Source of the DNA: Thainema sp.
GTDB lineage: Bacteria > Cyanobacteriota > Cyanobacteriia > Phormidesmidales > Phormidesmidaceae
Length of the DNA: 13,075 bases
Direction of reading: 5' to 3'
Assembly (NCBI GenBank): GCA_052168235.1
Contig: JBQLZK010000113.1
Coordinates: forward strand, 1 to 13,075
Positions within the stretch are counted from its first letter, which is position 1. Each line of letters starts with the position of its first letter. Shown one piece after another: positions 5,997 to 13,075 of this stretch. The notes beneath the pieces are model-generated. The model was given only the letters and a program-made list of their open reading frames with translations, was not told the origin of the DNA and did not search any database. The translations under genes and the position numbers were made by a program.

Positions 5997-6513
5997 AGGA
6001 AGTGCTGCTCTCGTTAGGTATAACTTTTGTGTTGTTGTTTAAACTTTGCGCTCGAAACTAAAATTTACGCAGCTTTTTCTAGGGATTTACTGCTAAGAAA
6101 ATGACCAAAATTCGTGGCTAATCAAAACTTAGAATTGATTTAAGATTTCCCTTGGTGGTTTAAAAATCATCCACGCTATGCTGCAAGTGTGTGGCCTGTG
6201 GTGATAGCCCAAGTCGCTATTGGTATAAGTTTCTTTGGCATCAGTAGGCGAACGTAATTCAAAGCACAACAGTTCCCATGACAGAAGTTCACACGACAGA
6301 TCTAAGCTTGGTTGAATTAGTTGAATTAAAAGTAAGCAACCCAGCGTGAATATCTTAATGCTGGATTTGCGATCGCATCATCCATTCCCAAACATCCTCA
6401 AAAAAGCTGCCTACTGATCAAGTATTTCTACTCATCTGTCGGACTCACCAGCCTCATAAAAACCGAACACTAGAAGCAAACATTCACAATCTTAATGATT
6501 GGGAGATCTCCCT

Positions 6514-8835
6514 ATGACCGCAGTGAATTTAAATCAAGAAATTAGTCTTGCGGGACTTAACCTAACCAACCTAAAGCAGCCGGATATTAATACGTTGACT
6601 CAAGTGCAGCCTCACGGTGTGCTGTTGGTATTGCAGGAGTCAGATCTAACCGTGCTACAAGTGAGCCGAAATACCCGCACAGCACTGGGATTGCCGCCAG
6701 AAGAGGTACTCGGCAAAACTCTAGATGACTTACTCGATCCCTATCAGGTTGATCAATTCCGGACTGGACTGTATTACGAAAACTTGGACATTATTAACCC
6801 GACTAAAGTTTGGGTGAAGCGCCAGGGAGATGACTACGGCGTTTACGATGCCATTTTTCACCGCAGCGCAGATGGGTTCTTGATTGTGGAGTTGGAACCC
6901 GCTCTGACGCAGGAAACTATTCCCTTCCTGAGCTTTTATCACCTCGCTAGAGCTTCGATCAGCCAGCTTGAGGCAACGCCGAATCTAGTGGATTTCTGTC
7001 GCATCATTGTCCATGAGGTACGTCGCGTCACTGGTTTTGACCGGGTGATGCTCTACAAATTCGACGATGACGGTCATGGTGAGGTGCTAGCTGAAGAGTT
7101 AGTTGAGGGTATGGAATCCTATCTGGGTCTATATTTCCCAGAATCAGATGTACCACAGCCTGCCCGCAAGATGTTCCTCTCCAATTGGATTCGGGTGATC
7201 CCCGATGCCAAGGCGGAACCTGTCGATTTGTATCCGGCCAATAATCCCGTGACGGGCCAGCCAACGGATTTAATCATGTCCGTTCTGCGTCAGCCCTACC
7301 GCTGCCATATTGAATACCTCAGCCACATGCAGGTGGGATCGTCGCTGACCATTTCGCTGATGAAGGATCAGAAGCTCTGGGGTCTAATTGCCTGCCACCA
7401 CCGTACACCCAAGCAGGTGCCTTACGAACTGCGGAAAGCCTGTGAATTTCTGGGTCGGGTGATTTTCTCTGAAATCTCCACCCGCGAAGAGGAAGCCGAC
7501 CATAACTACCGGATGAAGCTGGCTCAGGTGCAGTCCCGGTTAGTTGACCGGATGGCGCAGGAAGACTACTTCGTGCATGGTCTGGTGCAGCAGGAGCCGA
7601 GTCTGCTGGACTTGGTTGACGCCAAAGGGGCCGCGATTTGCTTCAACGGTCACTGGACAACGATTGGCCGCACGCCGTCTGAGGAAGAGTTGAACTATCT
7701 GGTGCAGTGGCTGAATAAGACCGTCGATGGCGAGATTTTTGAAACTAGTGCGCTGCCATTGGTTTACTCCGATGCCCAGCGATTCAAAGACGTAGCCAGT
7801 GGTTTGCTCGCAATCCCGATCTCGAAGCGCAGCTACGTGCTGTGGTTCCGACCGGAAGTCATTCAAACCGTCAACTGGGGCGGCGATCCGAATAATGCTT
7901 ACACATTAGAAGGTGAAGCTGACAATCAGTGGCTCTGTCCCCGTAAGTCTTTCCATCTCTGGAAAGAAACAGTAAAGCTGCAGTCGCTGCCCTGGAAATC
8001 GGTGGAGATTCGGGCGGCACTAGAACTGCGTAAAGCAATCGTCAACATTGTTCTGCGACAGGCGGAAGAGTTGGCCTTACTGGCTCAGGATCTGGAGCGT
8101 TCGAATGCCGAGCTGAAGCGGTTTGCCTACGTTGCGTCCCATGATTTGCAGGAACCGCTAAATCAGGTGGCTAACTTTGTGCAGCTTCTGGAAATGCGCT
8201 ACGATGCCGAGCTGGGTCAAGACGGTAAAGAGTTTATTGGCTTTGCCGTTGAGGGCGTCAGCCTGATGCAGACCCTGATCGACGATGTATTGGCCTATTC
8301 CAAGGTTGATCTGAAGGGGATTGATCGGGAGCTGATCGACGTGCAGGATTCGCTGGATCAAGCGATGAATAATCTGCGCGGACGGATTGCGGACGCCAAC
8401 GCTGCGATTACCGTGGATTTATTGCCGACCATCGTGGCCGACGGCACGCAGCTCATGCAGCTCTTCCAGAACCTGATTGGCAACGCGATTAAGTTCCGCA
8501 AGCCGTCAGAGCTACCGCGCATCCACATTGGCGTGCAGCGTCAGGAAGATGCTTGGCTGTTCTCAGTCAAGGACAACGGCATTGGCCTTGACCCACAGTT
8601 TGCCGAGCGCATTTTCATCATCTTCCAGCGGCTTCATACTCGGGATGAGTATCCCGGTTCCGGTATGGGACTGGCGATCTGTAAGAAGATTGTCGAATGT
8701 CATCGGGGCCGCATTTGGGTTGAATCCCAAGTGGGAGAAGGCGCAACGTTTTATTTCACCATTCCGGTTGAAGGACGCGATCGCAATCATGGTAATGGAC
8801 GAAAAGCCCAAACGTATCTTTTTGATCGAGGATAA
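6514..8835 (+). CDS. cph1: Cyanobacterial phytochrome (Cph1/CphA type): PAS-GAF-PHY-HisKA-HATPase
   Basis: QPHG PAS start, GFDRVMLY, PESDVP, bilin-binding Cys in the GAF domain (YRCHIEY, codon 7303-7305), LWGLIACHH, WGG and PRKSF tongue, H-box ASHDLQEPL, N/G1/F/G2 boxes. ATG 6514 follows GGAG at 6502-6505. Confidence 0.95.
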   Translation: MTAVNLNQEISLAGLNLTNLKQPDINTLTQVQPHGVLLVLQESDLTVLQVSRNTRTALGLPPEEVLGKTLDDLLDPYQVDQFRTGLYYENLDIINPTKVWVKRQGDDYGVYDAIFHRSADGFLIVELEPALTQETIPFLSFYHLARASISQLEATPNLVDFCRIIVHEVRRVTGFDRVMLYKFDDDGHGEVLAEELVEGMESYLGLYFPESDVPQPARKMFLSNWIRVIPDAKAEPVDLYPANNPVTGQPTDLIMSVLRQPYRCHIEYLSHMQVGSSLTISLMKDQKLWGLIACHHRTPKQVPYELRKACEFLGRVIFSEISTREEEADHNYRMKLAQVQSRLVDRMAQEDYFVHGLVQQEPSLLDLVDAKGAAICFNGHWTTIGRTPSEEELNYLVQWLNKTVDGEIFETSALPLVYSDAQRFKDVASGLLAIPISKRSYVLWFRPEVIQTVNWGGDPNNAYTLEGEADNQWLCPRKSFHLWKETVKLQSLPWKSVEIRAALELRKAIVNIVLRQAEELALLAQDLERSNAELKRFAYVASHDLQEPLNQVANFVQLLEMRYDAELGQDGKEFIGFAVEGVSLMQTLIDDVLAYSKVDLKGIDRELIDVQDSLDQAMNNLRGRIADANAAITVDLLPTIVADGTQLMQLFQNLIGNAIKFRKPSELPRIHIGVQRQEDAWLFSVKDNGIGLDPQFAERIFIIFQRLHTRDEYPGSGMGLAICKKIVECHRGRIWVESQVGEGATFYFTIPVEGRDRNHGNGRKAQTYLFDRG

Positions 8836-9235
8836 TCGGGGCGATATTCGACTGATTCAAGAAGCCCTCAAGAGCAGTAATGTACCTTGCGAGGTCGAGA
8901 TTGCTCGCGATGGCATGGAGGCAATGGCCTACCTGCAGCAGGATGGGGAAGATGCGATCGCACATCGTCCCGACCTCATCCTGCTGGACTTGAACCTGCC
9001 GAAGAAAGATGGTCGGGAGGTGCTAGCTGAAATCAAGGCTGACGAAGCGCTCAAGCACATCCCGATTATCGTGCTGACGACATCCCGCAATGAGGAGGAC
9101 ATTAGCAAGAGCTATGATCTATACGTGAACTGCTATATCTCCAAATCGCGGAATCTAGCGCAACTGTTCAAAATCGTTCGAGGGATTGAGGCATTTTGGT
9201 TAGAGACAGCCAAACTACCGTCCAACGGCCCTTAG
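8789..9235 (+). CDS. rcp1: Phytochrome cognate response regulator Rcp1/RcpA
   Basis: IFLIEDNRGD, PDLILLDLNLPKKDGREVL, VLTTS, NCYISK and FWLE motifs; directly follows cph1. Start is ATG 8789 or 8795, overlapping the cph1 3' end. Confidence 0.93.
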   Translation: MVMDEKPKRIFLIEDNRGDIRLIQEALKSSNVPCEVEIARDGMEAMAYLQQDGEDAIAHRPDLILLDLNLPKKDGREVLAEIKADEALKHIPIIVLTTSRNEEDISKSYDLYVNCYISKSRNLAQLFKIVRGIEAFWLETAKLPSNGP

Positions 9236-11271
9236 GCAAACCGCTCGTCAACGTCCTGCTGATTGAGGACAATGTGGCAGAAGCTCGTCTGATCCAAGAA
9301 GTCCTCAAAGGAACGCCACGCAGCCGCTTTGTCCTGTCCCACGCCAAGCGCTTGGGAGAAGCGATTGAGCGGCTCGGTGCTGATTCGTTTGACGTGGCAC
9401 TGCTGGATCTGACGCTGCCGGACAGTAGCGGCTTGGAGTCCCTGGATCGGCTGATTCGGGATGCGCCAACTCTGCCGATTGTGGTGTTAACGAACACCAA
9501 CGATGATGACTTAGCCGTGGAAGCGGTGCGGCACGGAGCGCAGGACTATCTGATGAAGCGGCAGATGAACCAAGAGCTACTGGTGCGATCGCTGCGCTAC
9601 GCGATTGAGCGCAAGCAAACCGCTGTAGCGCTGCGGCAGGCGAATGAGGCGCTGGAAGAGCGGGTGCAGGAGCGCACAGCCGAGTTAGAAACGGCCAACG
9701 AGCAACTGCGCCAAGAAGTCGTGCAGCGCCAGCGGGTTCAGGAACGGCTGACGTTGGCTCAAAAAGCAGCCAAAATGGGCGCGTTTGAGTGGGATATCCC
9801 CTCGGATCAAATTAGATGGGGCGTGGAATTAGAGAAGAGCGCAGCACAGACTACTGCTGATTCACTCGCATCCTTGAAATCCTCTGTATCAGGCAGCTTT
9901 GGCAACTATCAGAGCAAATGGATCTGGACACTGGATCCCAATGACTTAGAGCGAGTTGAACAGGAATTGCACCAAGCTGTCCAGTCCGGACAGGGGTTGA
10001 ATACAGAGTTTCGTATTTCTGATGATGCAGGCAAGGTGCGGTGGATTGCGATTCAAAGCAGCTTATTTACTAATGTAGCGGGCCATCCTCTACGGCTGCT
10101 GGGCATCTACATGGACATTACCGAGAAGAAGCACCTAGAAGAACAGTTCCTGCGGGCGCAACGGCTGGAAAGTTTAGGGACGCTTGCTAGCGGCATCGCT
10201 CATGATTTAAACAATATCCTAACCCCCATTCTACTAGCAGTCCAACTGCTACCTCGTATGATGCCCCATCTCAATGAACCAACTCGTCAACGGCTAGAAA
10301 TTCTAGAAAATAGCGCTCACCGAGGCGTTGATTTAGTGAAGCAAATTCTTGCGTTTGCCCGAGGAGTAGAGGGTAAGCGCTTCAGCCTGCAAGTTAGCCC
10401 GCTGCTGAAGGAAATTAACAAGTTAGTGCGGCAAACGCTGCCCAAGTCGATTGAAATTCAAGCTGACATTGATCCTAATCTGTGGACGGTGTCCGGCGAT
10501 GCGACTCAACTGCATCAGGTGTTTATGAATCTCTGCGTCAATGCCCGCGATGCGATGTCGAACGGTGGCACGTTGCAAATTACGGCAGAGAACAAGCTGG
10601 TGGATGAGCAGTTGGCTCAACTGCATTTAGAGGCACAGGTTGGACGCTACGTCCTAATCACCATCAGTGATACGGGCTCCGGCATTCCACCCGATATTCT
10701 GCATCGAATTTTCGACCCCTTTTTCACGACTAAAGAGGTTGGTAAGGGTACGGGACTAGGTCTATCAGCGGTTTTGGGAATTGTTAACAGCCACGGTGGC
10801 TTTATTGATGTCGTGAGCGAAGTAGGTAGTGGCAGCCAATTTAAGGTTTATTTACCAGCAACGGAGGAGGCTGTGCCCAAACCGATCGATTCCCTGGATC
10901 TACTGGCTGGACATGGCGAGTTAGTTTTAGTCGTAGATGATGAACCTGCTATCTGCGAGATTACCCAGACGACGCTCGAAGCCTACAATTATCGAGTAAT
11001 AACAGCTCAAGATGGCGCAGATGCGATCGCACTTTTAGCGGAGCATAAAGACGACGTTTACAGCGTCCTGATGGATTTAATGATGCCCAATATGGATGGC
11101 CTGTCAGCTATTCCAGTTATGCGCCGCATTAGTCCTAATCTACGAATCATTGCCACTAGTGGCTTAAACTCTACCGATGCTGCTGCCCAGGCCGAAAAGC
11201 TTGGCTTTCAAGGCTTTTTACCAAAACCTTTTGCGGCACAAGAATTACTACAAATTTTGAGATCAGAGTAG
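9196..11271 (+). CDS. Hybrid sensor histidine kinase (REC - coiled coil - PAS/PAC - HisKA - HATPase - REC)
   Basis: N-terminal REC (LLIEDN, LLDLTLPD), PAC motif (RWI...MDITEKK), H-box GIAHDLNNIL, N-box NLCVNARDAM, FDPFFTTK..GKGTGLGL, C-terminal REC (VVDDE, LMDLMMP, KP). The TTG 9196 start is uncertain. Confidence 0.93.
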   Translation: MVRDSQTTVQRPLGKPLVNVLLIEDNVAEARLIQEVLKGTPRSRFVLSHAKRLGEAIERLGADSFDVALLDLTLPDSSGLESLDRLIRDAPTLPIVVLTNTNDDDLAVEAVRHGAQDYLMKRQMNQELLVRSLRYAIERKQTAVALRQANEALEERVQERTAELETANEQLRQEVVQRQRVQERLTLAQKAAKMGAFEWDIPSDQIRWGVELEKSAAQTTADSLASLKSSVSGSFGNYQSKWIWTLDPNDLERVEQELHQAVQSGQGLNTEFRISDDAGKVRWIAIQSSLFTNVAGHPLRLLGIYMDITEKKHLEEQFLRAQRLESLGTLASGIAHDLNNILTPILLAVQLLPRMMPHLNEPTRQRLEILENSAHRGVDLVKQILAFARGVEGKRFSLQVSPLLKEINKLVRQTLPKSIEIQADIDPNLWTVSGDATQLHQVFMNLCVNARDAMSNGGTLQITAENKLVDEQLAQLHLEAQVGRYVLITISDTGSGIPPDILHRIFDPFFTTKEVGKGTGLGLSAVLGIVNSHGGFIDVVSEVGSGSQFKVYLPATEEAVPKPIDSLDLLAGHGELVLVVDDEPAICEITQTTLEAYNYRVITAQDGADAIALLAEHKDDVYSVLMDLMMPNMDGLSAIPVMRRISPNLRIIATSGLNSTDAAAQAEKLGFQGFLPKPFAAQELLQILRSE

Positions 11272-11289
11272 GGCAAATGGCATTCGTCT

Positions 11290-11649
11290 CTACGCAGGTC
11301 TTCTTTGAATCTGTTGGGTAGTGTCATCAAAACTGCGATCGCATCTTCGGTTTGCACGGTCTGATTGGCCTAAGCCGTAATTTCGGTAACAGTGCCAGAT
11401 GTGGGAGCCTGAATCATACGCAGGTCGCCAACTGGCCGAATGATGGCCGGAGCCTTGGCCGTGACGCTGTATTTGAATAAGCTCGCAAACGTCAACTCCC
11501 CCCCAAAGAGGCCGAGCAAGGCGATGCCGCCCAGTTTCGACCAGCGAGAAATGGGCGGCAAAAACGCGTCGGGGGTGACGGCTCGGAGTAGTATGGGCGG
11601 CTTAACGGTCACATCTGGAGAATCAAAAATTGATGAATGATCAGAACAT
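11290..11649 (-). pseudogene. Truncated HlyD-family membrane fusion protein of the cyanobacterial peptide-export (type I secretion) type
   Basis: FLPPISRW, a transmembrane segment, KYSVTAKAPAIIRPVGDLRMIQAPTSGTV. In-frame TAG at 11370-11372, after which similarity continues (ANQTVQTEDAIAV). A 1-nt frameshift at about 11329-11332 then gives DDTTQQIQ. The rest of the gene is missing. The start region is probably also frameshifted (ATG 11649 is out of frame with GTG 11612). Confidence 0.85.
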
Positions 11650-11838
11650 GAGGCTCATCGCCCAGGTTAAATGATCATAGGATTTCAGCTTAACTCGAAT
11701 ACGCTCATTGTTACCTCCCTGAAGATCGGCCTGAGTCTCTTCAGGAATTTCACACCATAAATTATTACTGGTGAGGCTGTTGCTGGCGCAGGATATTTGA
11801 TGATCTTTTATCTAACTATGTTGTGAATCTAATGTCAT
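11641..11838 (-). pseudogene. Double-glycine leader peptide gene 5 (core resembles ribosomal protein uS10 N-terminus), interrupted by an in-frame TAG
   Basis: Manual translation: MTLDSQHS*IKDHQISCASNSLTSNNLWCEIPEETQADLQGG|NNERIRVKLKSYDHLTWAMSLMF*. GGAG lies 8 nt before ATG 11838. TAG at 11812-11814. Confidence 0.75.
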
Positions 11839-11862
11839 TGATTTCACTCCCAAATATCGCGA

Positions 11863-12027
11863 TTAGATACCACTTTGTTGAGCAACGTGAGTTAGTTCAT
11901 GGGCTAGAAGACTGGATCCTCCAGAGAAAACTTGTGTCTCACAATCAGACAATTCAGTAAAATGCTTAGTCAGGTTTTCAAGATTAGAGCATTTATTTTG
12001 CTTATTTTGCTTATTTTGCTTATTCAT
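11863..12027 (-). CDS. Double-glycine leader peptide gene 4, 54 aa (core resembles the DUF4157 HExxH motif)
   Basis: Manual translation: MNKQNKQNKQNKCSNLENLTKHFTELSDCETQVFSGG|SSLLAHELTHVAQQSGI*. Intact ORF below the ORF-track size cutoff. Confidence 0.85.
   Translation of the reverse strand: MNKQNKQNKQNKCSNLENLTKHFTELSDCETQVFSGGSSLLAHELTHVAQQSGI
11993..12024. repeat. 9-bp tandem repeat (TTATTTTGC) x3.5 encoding NKQ repeats in the leader of peptide 4
   Basis: Copies at 11993, 12002 and 12011, plus a partial copy at 12020. Confidence 0.9.
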
Positions 12028-12163
12028 TGTTCTCAATTTAATTCGAGATCACCCAATCTGCGATCGCAGCCCCATCTCTAAACGATTCTGGAAGTGCGAT
12101 CGCAAACTCTAATTCAGGTTAAGACAGCCAGATCAAAAAACTGAATTTCAAACCTGGAGCTTA

Positions 12164-12318
12164 TCAAGTACCACCTTGTCCTGAACCATCACAAGGAAAC
12201 GAGTAGCCGAAATCTTTGCCTCCGCTAAGAGTTGATTGCGTATCGTTCGACAGCTCTTGCCAAAGTGATGGTTTAGTTAACAAGTGTTGGGGGAAGGCTT
12301 TGCAATATTACGTTTCAT
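12164..12318 (-). pseudogene. Double-glycine leader peptide gene 3 (core resembles the PsaB FX-binding loop), 1-nt frameshift in the leader
   Basis: Adding one base to the G5 run at 12289-12293 gives MKRNIAKPSPQHLLTKPSLWQELSNDTQSTLSGG|KDFGYSFPCDGSGQGGT*. As written, the ATG 12318 frame stops after 13 codons. An in-frame TTG could give a shorter leader. Confidence 0.8.
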
Positions 12319-12378
12319 AGGATTTTCCAGTTACAGCAAAGTGTCTGACGATAAAGGATACAGCTAGAGCTGCTAGTC

Positions 12379-12600
12379 TTACGCATCCACACGTCCGCGC
12401 AAAGTTGCAAGTTCCGCTGAAAACTCTTCTTGGAGCCGTTGGGTGTTACTGGTTGCTGCCGCAAAGAGGAAAATTACGCTGCCGCCTGAGATTGCTTCCG
12501 TTTCGTTTTCTGAAAGCTCTATTGCATCAAGGACAGGCAAAAGCTCGAGTTGATTTTGGTGTTTACCAGGTAAACCGTTTCTAAATTTTTTATTCTTCAT
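12379..12600 (-). CDS. Double-glycine leader peptide gene 2, 73 aa (core ends in an SLH-porin coiled-coil motif)
   Basis: MKNKKFRNGLPGKHQNQLELLPVLDAIELSENETEAISGG|SVIFLFAAATSNTQRLQEEFSAELATLRGRVDA*. AAGGAG (12607-12612) lies 6 nt before ATG 12600. Confidence 0.85.
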   Translation of the reverse strand: MKNKKFRNGLPGKHQNQLELLPVLDAIELSENETEAISGGSVIFLFAAATSNTQRLQEEFSAELATLRGRVDA

Positions 12601-12686
12601 GAGCATCTCCTTTCCCTCAAAAGGGAAACAGGCTGGAATAGAATTTATTCGACTAAATTGCAATTTTATGATCGCAAATTTATATA

Positions 12687-12863
12687 CTAAAACTCTCCTC
12701 TCGCATCTGCTTGGACAACAACCTTCGTGAAGGCATCAAACATTCCGCCTTGAATTCTGCTCTGAGTCGTTTCAGGAATATCTTGAAGGAATAATATTTT
12801 CTGAATTTGTAGATATTTAGAAGAAAGCTGTCTCATGTTTGGTTTGGTTTGAGTACAGGCCAT
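12687..12863 (-). CDS. Double-glycine leader peptide gene 1, 58 aa (core resembles the phycocyanin beta N-terminus)
   Basis: Manual translation: MACTQTKPNMRQLSSKYLQIQKILFLQDIPETTQSRIQGG|MFDAFTKVVVQADARGEF*. AAGAGG lies 7 nt before ATG 12863. Confidence 0.85.
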   Translation of the reverse strand: MACTQTKPNMRQLSSKYLQIQKILFLQDIPETTQSRIQGGMFDAFTKVVVQADARGEF

Positions 12864-12965
12864 TGATAAACCTCTTTATAGATGTACAAATGTAGTTGAT
12901 CTATGCAGGCTGGGTGAAACAGCAGATGACTAATAGACTTTATTGGAAGTAAAGTTTTTGGGGTT

Positions 12966-13012
12966 GGAAATTGTTTTGTAGCGCGGCGGAGCCGCGCTAC
13001 AAAACAATTTCC
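12966..13012. repeat. Perfect 22-bp inverted repeat with a 3-nt loop (REP-like / small dispersed repeat, or terminator-like hairpin)
   Basis: GGAAATTGTTTTGTAGCGCGGC-GGA-GCCGCGCTACAAAACAATTTCC. Confidence 0.85.
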
Positions 13013-13075
13013 GATAAGGTCTATAGCGGTTCTCATTCGAATGAGGTACAGTAGCAGTCGTTTATGAACCAGTTG

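What the first reader, a model, noticed from the sequence alone, without database searches (positions are those of the whole stretch)
12382..12480. Peptide 2 core ends in the conserved coiled-coil motif of cyanobacterial SLH-domain porins
QRLQEEFSAELATLRGRVDA (12382-12441) matches the remembered motif LQRLQEEF(A/S)AELATLRGRVDALEARTAELE, which links the SLH domain and beta-barrel of SomA-like porins. It is preceded by 13 residues I do not recognise (SVIFLFAAATSNT), which could be a spacer or a second borrowed fragment. A periplasmic coiled coil would be a reachable target for an exported mimic (inference).
Basis: partly seen in the sequence, partly recalled or inferred. Interest (0 to 1): 0.82.

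Follow-up and report, generated by a model that had tools for sequence, protein, structure and literature searches.

The report
Secreted peptide copying a porin stalk
A small cyanobacterial gene joins an export leader to a letter-perfect copy of the stalk segment of outer-membrane porins, and its neighbours copy other core proteins in the same way; why is unknown.

Summary
Window 12382-12441 (-) encodes QRLQEEFSAELATLRGRVDA. That 20-mer is exact in 109 of 130 proteins held, and all 120 listed long hits carry SLH and/or OprB porin domains. It is the start of the trimeric coiled-coil stalk of OmpM-type porins.

It forms the C-terminus of a 73-aa precursor (12382-12600, -): a 40-aa double-glycine leader, a 13-aa hydrophobic spacer, then the motif. 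A 73-aa relative (P0125) has the same layout.

The gene is the second of five leader peptides upstream of a HlyD remnant. Four of the five cores match conserved proteins: phycocyanin beta N-terminus, porin stalk, PsaB iron-sulfur loop and the DUF4157 HExxH helix. None of 8 control peptides from two other cyanobacterial arrays does. A related contig puts a PsaA loop on the peptide-2 scaffold.

The 13-mer is a family spacer. It may be a diverged piece of the porin helix upstream of the motif (73/20000 shuffles).

In this window HlyD and the fifth peptide carry stop codons, and no peptidase exporter is visible. Stalk mimicry is plausible but untested. I found no description in print.

The parts
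12607..12612 (-). Ribosome-binding site AAGGAG, ending six bases before the ATG of peptide 2
   Evidence: Read from the sequence.
12481..12600 (-). 40-residue double-glycine leader of peptide 2 (MKNKK...ELSENETEAISGG). The predicted cleavage is after G40.
   Evidence: ORF and translation. GG is the only invariant pair across the six aligned leaders. Sub-threshold hits to CTB family bacteriocin NF038167 (20.2 bits, cut-off 32) and bacteriocin_sig TIGR01847 (13.5 bits, cut-off 15.7). The relative P0125 has a leader of the same length.
12442..12480 (-). 13-residue hydrophobic spacer SVIFLFAAATSNT, possibly a diverged remnant of the porin helix (RVNELIATATAD) upstream of the stalk
   Evidence: Translation. 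It aligns with the spacers of P0125 and L001 457-678. PSSM test: 73/20000 shuffles do as well. DNA local alignment: 31/2000.
12382..12441 (-). 20-residue copy of the first three heptads of the SLH/OprB (OmpM-type) porin coiled-coil stalk
12379..12381 (-). TAA stop directly after ...RVDA. Porins continue here with LEARTAELE.
   Evidence: Residual porin similarity downstream of the stop is not significant (144/2000 shuffles).
12360..12373 (-). Weak terminator-like hairpin after the stop
   Evidence: 1 site found, 1.7 expected by chance, so this is not evidence on its own.
12687..12863 (-). Array member A. A leader ending IQGG, then MFDAFTKVVVQADARGEF, which matches residues 1-18 of phycocyanin beta including its first Met.
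   Evidence: PDB phmmer E 0.0046. NCBIfam TIGR01339 E 0.0013. A near-identical copy, P0133, lies on another contig.
12164..12283 (-). Array member C. A short leader (TTG start, no clear ribosome-binding site), then KDFGYSFPCDGSGQGGT, which matches the PsaB iron-sulfur (Fx) loop.
   Evidence: Pfam PsaA_PsaB E 2.1e-4. PDB PsaB E 9.3e-5. NCBIfam psaB E 3.2e-5.
11863..12036 (-). Array member D. A leader with NKQ repeats, then SSLLAHELTHVAQQSGI, which matches the HExxH end of the DUF4157/eCIS_core domain.
   Evidence: Pfam PF13699 E 1.4e-5, 25.6 bits against a cut-off of 22. The relative P0135 is 82% identical and also hits PF13699.
11641..11838 (-). Array member E, a pseudogene here. ATG at 11838 and TAG at codon 9 (11812-11814), where L001 has CAG. 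The core is NNERIRVKLKSYDHLTWAMSLMF.
   Evidence: The resemblance to ribosomal protein S10 is not significant (E about 1; no NCBIfam hit for the relative P0137 at E<=1).
11300..11612 (-). Remnant of the HlyD adaptor gene. TAG at 11370-11372 where L001 has CAG, then a 1-base deletion. Homology to the intact 446-aa L001 gene ends near 11300.

Best explanation
SHOWN. Peptide 2 is a real, conserved small gene (73 aa). It consists of a 40-residue double-glycine export leader of the class II / cyanobacterial CTB-bacteriocin type, a 13-residue hydrophobic spacer, and a verbatim 20-residue copy of the start of the coiled-coil stalk that links the SLH domain to the beta-barrel in OmpM-type porins. It is one member of a tandem array of leader peptides that lies upstream of a HlyD gene. 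Four of the five array members carry a short motif copied from a conserved protein.

INFERRED. A C39-peptidase ABC exporter encoded elsewhere cuts after G40 and exports a 33-residue, largely helical peptide. That peptide acts as a stalk mimic. Its three heptads, extended N-terminally by the hydrophobic spacer, pair with porin stalk helices while trimers are being assembled. This would disturb porin trimerisation or outer-membrane tethering in cells that take it up. Its sisters would similarly compete with the phycocyanin, photosystem I and DUF4157 segments they copy.

In the organism of this window the locus is partly decayed, so peptide 2 could only be exported by machinery encoded elsewhere.
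For: Architecture.

Porin identity of the 20-mer. Its place in the trimeric stalk: PDB OmpM alignment and passages of PMC10628300.

It is a real gene and not an accident:
- The relative P0125 has the same total length (73), leader length (40) and core length (33), with 53% identity.
- In that pair the motif region is the best conserved part: 15/20, against 17/40 in the leader and 3/13 in the spacer, counted from the invariant columns.
- In the E family, 19/23 core columns are invariant against 17 of the 33 leader columns that all four rows share.
- The ribosome-binding site is well spaced.

Array context in other assemblies:
- B-, D- and E-like proteins share one contig length (6516 b) and source label in the search table, so I take them to lie on one contig.
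- L001 has three leader peptides, an E-like gene and an intact 446-aa HlyD.

Motif copying is specific to this family. Four of 5 window peptides hit conserved-protein models inside the core. None of 8 small peptides from two other cyanobacterial HlyD-linked arrays does; they hit only bacteriocin-type models or nothing.

Modularity: the L001 peptide at 457-678 shares leader and spacer start with P0125 (48% over 48 residues), but it ends in the PsaA Fx loop with both cysteines replaced.

AlphaFold2 on the single sequence predicts one helix over residues 39-72 (mean pLDDT 60, so a weak model).

The mature peptide has net charge -1 by my count from the sequence, which is unlike typical cationic membrane-active bacteriocins.
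Against: - No binding, export or phenotype has been shown; the mechanism is inference.
- No C39-peptidase ABC transporter lies in the 13-kb window or in the 8.6 kb downstream of HlyD in L001. Both arrays abut contig ends.
- In the window, HlyD and peptide E each carry a TAG where L001 has CAG, and HlyD is also frameshifted and truncated. Peptide C has only a TTG start.
- HlyD-type export is thought to bypass the periplasm (my own knowledge), so a porin stalk would be reachable only after uptake by a target cell.
- The OmpM stalk is very stable (about 87 C) and is thought to commit during biogenesis. Three heptads is a short interface.
- In P0125 the first part of the motif has drifted (QLFTEFE against QRLQEEFS), so exact mimicry is not strictly kept.
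- The family is rare. Apart from self-hit P0122, only one other representative of leader-plus-stalk-motif design (P0125) had E<=0.001 among 1.84 billion representatives.
Confidence: 0.4

Rival explanations
1. Decaying relic. The array is a dying bacteriocin-type locus, and peptide 2 is a leftover chimera of a leader and a porin gene fragment that is no longer made or exported in this organism.
For: - E and HlyD carry premature stops, and HlyD is also frameshifted and truncated.
- C lacks a good start.
- No exporter is visible.
- The array has lower G+C (0.40-0.43) than its neighbours (0.47-0.59).
- The family is rare.
Against: - Peptide 2 is intact, has a good ribosome-binding site, and has exactly the length and layout of P0125.
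- Cores are better conserved than leaders.
- Related arrays exist in at least two other assemblies, and L001 keeps an intact HlyD.
- Cyanobacteria commonly have several such exporter loci (abstract and passages of PMC3140520).
Confidence: 0.25
2. Ordinary unmodified bacteriocin or EbfG-like matrix/biofilm peptide. The porin-derived helix serves only as a convenient amphipathic or self-associating segment, and the activity has nothing to do with porins.
For: - Sub-threshold similarity to CTB bacteriocins and the double-glycine signal.
- HlyD linkage.
- A hydrophobic stretch directly after GG occurs in several family members.
- Small secreted GG-motif proteins enable biofilm formation in Synechococcus elongatus (PMC4997328; search listing and abstract start only).
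Against: - 20/20 identity to the porin consensus, and the motif is the best-kept part of the peptide.
- Four of 5 array members copy motifs of unrelated conserved proteins, against 0 of 8 in control arrays. That is hard to explain by helix propensity alone.
- The net charge is -1.
Confidence: 0.2
3. Signal or false alarm. The exported peptides imitate fragments that are released when cyanobacterial cells lyse (phycocyanin, photosystem I, porin), and neighbouring cells sense them.
For: - The recognised sources include very abundant cyanobacterial proteins (my own knowledge).
- The peptides are not cationic.
- Sensor kinases (a phytochrome kinase and a hybrid kinase) lie next to the array, which is weak evidence.
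Against: No receptor is known and no test was done. Adjacency of kinases may be accidental: in L001 the array has different neighbours.
Confidence: 0.1
4. By-product of DNA exchange. The cores are patches written into leader cassettes by recombination or gene conversion with resident genes, with no selected function for the copied motif itself.
For: - The same scaffold carries a porin motif (B, P0125) or a PsaA motif (L001).
- The spacer of B resembles the porin sequence upstream of the motif at DNA level (TTGCGGCAGCAACC against TTGCGACAGCAACC; 31/2000 shuffles).
- Peptide A starts exactly at the Met1 codon of cpcB.
Against: - Orthologous cores are conserved.
- Third-codon-position identity of the 60 nt to four plasmid porin genes (7-9/20) is no higher than among those porins (9-12/20). 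This is uninformative, because the host's own porin gene was not available.
- There are no flanking repeats or recombinase genes in the array.
Confidence: 0.1

Closest known systems
Cyanobacterial double-glycine leader peptides / 'CTB family bacteriocin' (NCBIfam NF038167) in HlyD plus C39-peptidase ABC transporter clusters (Wang et al. 2011, PMC3140520)
   Same: A short precursor with a leader ending in GG, tandem arrays of precursors, and a position next to HlyD.
   Different: - The score is below the family cut-off (20.2 against 32 bits).
- No peptidase transporter is visible.
- The cores are copies of motifs of conserved proteins. By contrast, none of 8 peptides from two ordinary arrays matches one.
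- The 2011 survey does not contain the words porin, photosystem, phycocyanin or fragment.
SLH/OprB 'iron uptake porins' of cyanobacteria (NF033921; SomA/SomB type) and OmpM of diderm Firmicutes (PDB 8BYM, PMC10628300)
   Same: The last 20 residues are identical to the start of the stalk helix.
   Different: There is no signal peptide, no SLH domain and no barrel. Only 22 of 485 model positions are covered, and the peptide stops after three heptads.
EbfG1-4 / PteB of Synechococcus elongatus (small secreted GG-motif proteins that enable biofilms; PMC4997328, listing and abstract start only)
   Same: Several small GG-motif genes in a row in a cyanobacterium, with a non-antibiotic role shown.
   Different: No sequence comparison was made here. 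I know of no copied motifs in EbfG (recalled).
RaxX of Xanthomonas (a leader peptide that mimics plant PSY hormones; PMC6637879, listing and abstract start only; export by a peptidase ABC transporter is recalled)
   Same: A precedent for a secreted bacterial peptide that works by molecular mimicry.
   Different: RaxX mimics a host hormone and is tyrosine-sulfated. Here the copied sequences are structural or catalytic motifs of the producer's own kind of proteins.

Membership tests
Double-glycine leader peptides (PCAT substrates; TIGR01847 bacteriocin_sig) | Leader ending in GG with the conserved L-S-x-x-E-L-x-x-I-x-G-G pattern (consensus recalled) | tested here: inconclusive
   ELSENETEAISGG has L-12, S-11, E-8, I-4 and GG but T at -7 (read). 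TIGR01847 scores 13.5 bits against a cut-off of 15.7, E 0.088. GG is invariant in all six aligned leaders.
Double-glycine leader peptides (PCAT substrates) | A C39-peptidase ABC transporter encoded nearby | tested here: not met
   None among the window ORFs or in the 8.6 kb after HlyD in L001. Both arrays abut contig ends, so an upstream transporter cannot be excluded.
Double-glycine leader peptides (PCAT substrates) | HlyD-family adaptor gene adjacent | tested here: met
   A remnant lies in the window at 11300-11612. The intact 446-aa gene in L001 hits HlyD_3 at E 2e-18.
Double-glycine leader peptides (PCAT substrates) | Cleavage after GG and export of the core | not testable with these tools
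   Needs peptidomics or an in vitro C39 protease assay.
CTB family bacteriocin (NF038167) | Score at or above the curated cut-off of the family model | tested here: not met
   20.2 bits against a cut-off of 32 for peptide 2, and 17.4 for P0125. An Acaryochloris array member reaches 32.5.
SLH/OprB porin (NF033921, PF00395 + PF04966) | SLH domain, stalk and OprB beta-barrel in one protein | tested here: not met
   Pfam finds no domain in peptide 2. NF033921 scores 21.9 bits against a cut-off of 100 and covers model positions 79-100 only.
RiPP precursor (modified peptide) | Modifying enzyme genes in the cluster | tested here: not met
   No lanthionine synthetase, ATP-grasp, cyclodehydratase or radical-SAM gene appears in the window or in L001. 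The methyltransferase at 61-870 is 11 kb away.
EbfG-like biofilm GG-motif proteins | Sequence similarity to EbfG1-4 and dependence on PteB | not tested

The most novel reading that the evidence does not exclude
Some cyanobacteria encode arrays of exported 'self-motif' peptides. Each is a secretion leader fused to a short, highly conserved piece of a core cyanobacterial protein: porin stalk, PsaA/PsaB iron-sulfur loop, phycocyanin beta N-terminus, or a HExxH helix. The pieces can be exchanged on a common scaffold. The peptides would act as dominant-negative assembly competitors, or as counterfeit lysis signals, against other cyanobacteria. That would be a class of weapon or signal built by copying the target itself.
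Probability: 0.25. Interest if true: 0.9.

Novelty: new variant of a known kind. Interest (0 to 1): 0.72.

Why it matters
Double-glycine leader peptides are common in cyanobacteria, but almost none has a known function, and their cores are described as unrelated to anything (PMC3140520). In this family, the cores that can be recognised are copies of the most conserved segments of the outer-membrane tether/porin, photosystem I, phycocyanin and a metalloprotease-like domain.

If these peptides work through the proteins they copy, three things would follow:
- They would be a new logic for inter-cyanobacterial antagonism or signalling.
- They would be natural probes for porin-stalk and photosystem assembly.
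- They would give a simple rule for predicting targets from sequence.

If they are only recombination by-products, they still show an unreported route by which leader cassettes pick up pieces of resident genes.

Tried and rejected
- **Searching the 13-mer on its own.** I tested it instead against the porin upstream profile and porin DNA.
- **WD40 hits in the representative search.** P0124, P0126 and P0127 scored E 1e-8 to 1e-4. P0124 proved to be a summed weak match to many WD40 repeats. I rejected P0124 on that basis, and the two others, which I did not inspect, by analogy.
- **First genome scan.** The scan with peptide 2 plus P0125 found no relative (103 pattern matches, 0 confirmed). Neither gene is therefore in the species-representative genomes.
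- **Second genome scan.** It gave L001 and a 12-residue match in L002, which I ignored.
- **Rfam on 11200-13075.** Only chance-level miRNA/snoRNA matches below gathering scores.
- **Promoter and terminator scan.** Nothing above the shuffle expectation.
- **ESM Atlas.** Best scores were 0.86, below the 0.9 lead threshold.
- **S10 origin of core E.** Not significant (E about 1-2; no NCBIfam hit).
- **Residual porin homology after the stop codon.** Not significant (144/2000).
- **The listing of cluster members for P0125, P0122 and P0123.** The database was switched off, so the sources and contigs of the relatives are known only from the tables.
- **Literature.** Searches found no paper describing leader peptides with cores copied from conserved proteins. 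Subscription journals are not covered.

Full report
**1. The observation**

On the minus strand, window 12382-12441 encodes QRLQEEFSAELATLRGRVDA and 12442-12480 encodes SVIFLFAAATSNT. A TAA stop follows at 12379-12381. Both belong to one ORF. Its most likely start is the ATG at 12600, six bases after GGAG. The product is 73 aa: MKNKK...ELSENETEAISGG, then a 33-residue core.

**2. The 20-mer is the porin motif**

- A word-indexed search restricted to longer proteins scored 1799 of 2077 candidates at E<=10.
- All 120 listed hits carry porin domains: 116 have PF00395 SLH plus PF04966 OprB, 3 have SLH only and 1 has OprB only. Where named, they are mostly called 'iron uptake porin' or OprB porin (a few rows carry other or no-function labels).
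- The best database-wide E-value is only 1.8e-3, because the match is 20 residues long. The pairwise match is 20/20 (E 8e-11).
- The exact string occurs in 109 of the 130 other proteins then held.
- In porins it comes right after the SLH domain (...NELIATATADLVTKEDLATL) and runs on as LEARTAELEANQFSTTTKL. The peptide stops after ...RVDA.
- NCBIfam maps residues 52-73 to positions 79-100 of the 485-position porin model NF033921 (21.9 bits, cut-off 100).
- tblastn against plasmids found the same 20-mer in annotated porin genes of Trichormus, Anabaena, Gloeocapsa and Chroococcidiopsis, and in unnamed (hypothetical-protein) genes of Scytonema and Brasilonema. There were 31 records in all, six of them chance-level Haloarcula matches.

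**3. What the motif does in porins**

A cyanobacterial porin (P0005) aligns over residues 147-250 with the solved OmpM proteins 8BYM, 8BYS and 8BZ2. The motif lies on OmpM's INRLADEFSNELNNLGVRVSRLEDR.

Passages of PMC10628300 say three things about OmpM:
- It is a trimeric porin whose SLH domain is joined to the barrels by a triple coiled-coil 'stalk'.
- The stalk melts near 87 C.
- It probably commits to its conformation during biogenesis.

Reading the heptads from the sequence (my inference), L/F/L/L/L occupy one core position every seven residues. Peptide 2 carries the first three heptads.

**4. Peptide 2 is a conserved gene**

An exhaustive phmmer search of 1.84 billion representatives gave seven hits at E<=0.001:
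- the peptide itself (P0122);
- a 73-aa relative, P0125;
- a 127-aa protein made of repeated stalk motifs (P0123);
- a 695-aa SLH protein (P0128);
- three long proteins (1331-1736 aa); P0124, the one I checked, is a WD40-repeat protein whose score comes from summed weak repeats, and I treat all three as spurious.

P0125 has the same 40-residue leader and a 33-residue core ending AELATLRGRVD (53% identity, E 2e-18 pairwise). Counting the invariant columns, the motif region is the best kept part: 15/20, against 17/40 in the leader and 3/13 in the spacer.

The leader is of the double-glycine type but below family thresholds:
- CTB family bacteriocin NF038167: 20.2 bits against 32.
- TIGR01847: 13.5 bits against 15.7.

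**5. The array**

The minus strand carries five such genes in a row, followed by an 80-codon ORF that matches the N-terminus of HlyD.

| Member | Window (-) | Core | Matches | Evidence |
|---|---|---|---|---|
| A | 12687-12863 | MFDAFTKVVVQADARGEF | phycocyanin beta residues 1-18, starting at its own Met | PDB E 0.0046; TIGR01339 E 0.0013, |
| B | 12379-12600 | SVIFLFAAATSNT + QRLQEEFSAELATLRGRVDA | porin stalk | section 2 |
| C | 12164-12283 | KDFGYSFPCDGSGQGGT | PsaB loop that ligates the Fx iron-sulfur cluster; ends just before the second cysteine | |
| D | 11863-12036 | SSLLAHELTHVAQQSGI | HExxH end of the DUF4157/eCIS_core domain | PF13699, 25.6 bits, above cut-off, |
| E | 11641-11838 | NNERIRVKLKSYDHLTWAMSLMF | looks like the S10 N-terminus, but not significantly | |

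As a control, I took 8 small peptides from two other cyanobacterial HlyD-linked arrays (7 from an Acaryochloris plasmid, 1 from a Microcoleus plasmid). None hit a conserved-protein model at E<=0.01: six hit bacteriocin-type models only and two hit no model.

**6. Relatives of the array**

A profile of the six leaders recovered 8 proteins from 209 candidates. They include:
- a near-identical A (P0133);
- D-like P0135 (82% identity);
- three E-like peptides.

P0125, P0135 and P0138 all come from a 6516-b contig with the same source label, which I take to be one contig.

The second genome scan gave locus L001. It is about 88% identical to the window in DNA over E and the start of HlyD. L001 holds:
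- three leader peptides;
- a 464-aa collagen-repeat / Peptidase_S74 protein;
- the E-like gene;
- an intact 446-aa HlyD.

No peptidase transporter lies in the following 8.6 kb. The array touches the contig end, as it nearly does in the window.

The L001 peptide at 457-678 shares leader and spacer start with P0125 (48% over 48 residues). It ends in SDLGFGFPSDGPGRGGTV, which is the PsaA Fx loop with both cysteines replaced. The scaffold is therefore kept while the copied motif differs.

**7. The 13-mer**

It occupies the place of the hydrophobic spacers of P0125 (NIRGILLLSMSVVST) and L001 (KIRGTILLFSTSSKVS).

- Scored against a profile of 59 distinct porin upstream 60-mers, its best ungapped placement is on RVNELIATATADM, colinear with the motif. 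The absolute score is 0.0 bits, and 73 of 20000 shuffles do as well.
- The spacers of P0125 and L001 show nothing in this test (16301 and 10528 of 20000).
- At DNA level, TTGCGGCAGCAACC matches TTGCGACAGCAACC of a Trichormus porin gene (31/2000 shuffles).

I read this as a possible longer porin fragment with about nine residues deleted. The two tests are not independent, so this remains suggestive.

AlphaFold2 without an alignment predicts one helix over residues 39-72 (mean pLDDT 60).

**8. State of the locus here**

Compared with L001, the window has two changes:
- TAG instead of CAG at codon 9 of E.
- TAG instead of CAG in HlyD, followed by a 1-base deletion and loss of the rest of the gene next to the convergent kinase gene.

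C has only a TTG start. The export genes of this copy of the locus are therefore broken. A, B and D remain intact.

**9. Organism**

The octamer GCGATCGC occurs 16 times against 0.26 expected. I recall this as the HIP1 signature of cyanobacteria. The neighbouring genes (phytochrome kinase and others) fit that assignment.

**10. Mechanism**

Shown: the architecture, the origin of the motif, conservation, array membership and modular exchange.

Inferred: cleavage after GG, export, and action as a stalk mimic.

Points against the mimic idea are listed in the Against line. The main ones are the export route, the stalk's stability, the short interface, the missing exporter and the drift in P0125.

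**11. Novelty**

- The 2011 survey of cyanobacterial bacteriocin clusters describes cores as showing very little conservation. It does not contain the words porin, photosystem, phycocyanin or fragment (passages and term counts).
- Six full-text searches found no description of leader peptides whose cores copy conserved proteins.
- Known comparators are EbfG (PMC4997328) and HetC (PMC10986499), both seen as search listing and abstract start only, and RaxX as a mimicry precedent (PMC6637879, listing only; its export route is recalled).
- Supplements were not consulted.

Noticed in passing
window 12687-12863, 12164-12283, 11863-12036 (all -): The sister peptides carry copies of the phycocyanin beta N-terminus (starting at its Met1), the PsaB Fx-cluster loop (ending before the second cysteine) and the DUF4157/eCIS_core HExxH helix.
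   Followed up: yes
window 11812-11814 and 11370-11372 (-): Both in-frame stops that break peptide E and HlyD are TAG where the related locus L001 has CAG. HlyD also has a 1-base deletion and lacks the rest of the gene.
   Followed up: yes
L001 457-678 (+): A peptide on the peptide-2 scaffold ends in the PsaA Fx loop with both cluster-ligating cysteines replaced (C to S, C to V).
   Followed up: partly
L001 1025-2419 (+): A 464-aa protein with collagen-like GDK/GPQ repeats and a Peptidase_S74 (endosialidase chaperone, tail-fibre-like) domain sits inside the related peptide array. There is no counterpart in the window.
   Followed up: no
window 12966-13012: A perfect 22-bp inverted repeat with a 3-nt loop (GGAAATTGTTTTGTAGCGCGGC / GCCGCGCTACAAAACAATTTCC) lies near the contig end, upstream of the array. 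Rfam gives only chance-level miRNA matches.
   Followed up: partly
window 11993-12024: A 9-bp unit is repeated three times inside the leader of peptide D (NKQ repeats). The relative P0135 has fewer copies, so the repeat number varies.
   Followed up: partly
window 11600-13000: The peptide array has lower G+C (0.40-0.43) than the kinase genes next to it (0.47-0.59).
   Followed up: no
P0123 (127 aa) and P0128 (695 aa), proteins: The stalk motif also occurs as tandem repeats in a small signal-peptide-like protein, and twice in a large SLH protein without an OprB barrel. The motif is therefore reused in other architectures.
   Followed up: no
window 6499-8835 and 9196-11271 (+): A bacteriophytochrome-type histidine kinase (PAS_2-GAF-PHY-HisKA-HATPase) and a hybrid kinase with two receiver domains lie directly beside the array. 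L001 has different neighbours.
   Followed up: no
L009 4056-5965 (Acaryochloris marina S15 plasmid): An ordinary array of five CTB-type leader peptides sits directly upstream of HlyD and a peptidase ABC transporter. I used it as a contrast; its cores match no conserved protein.
   Followed up: partly
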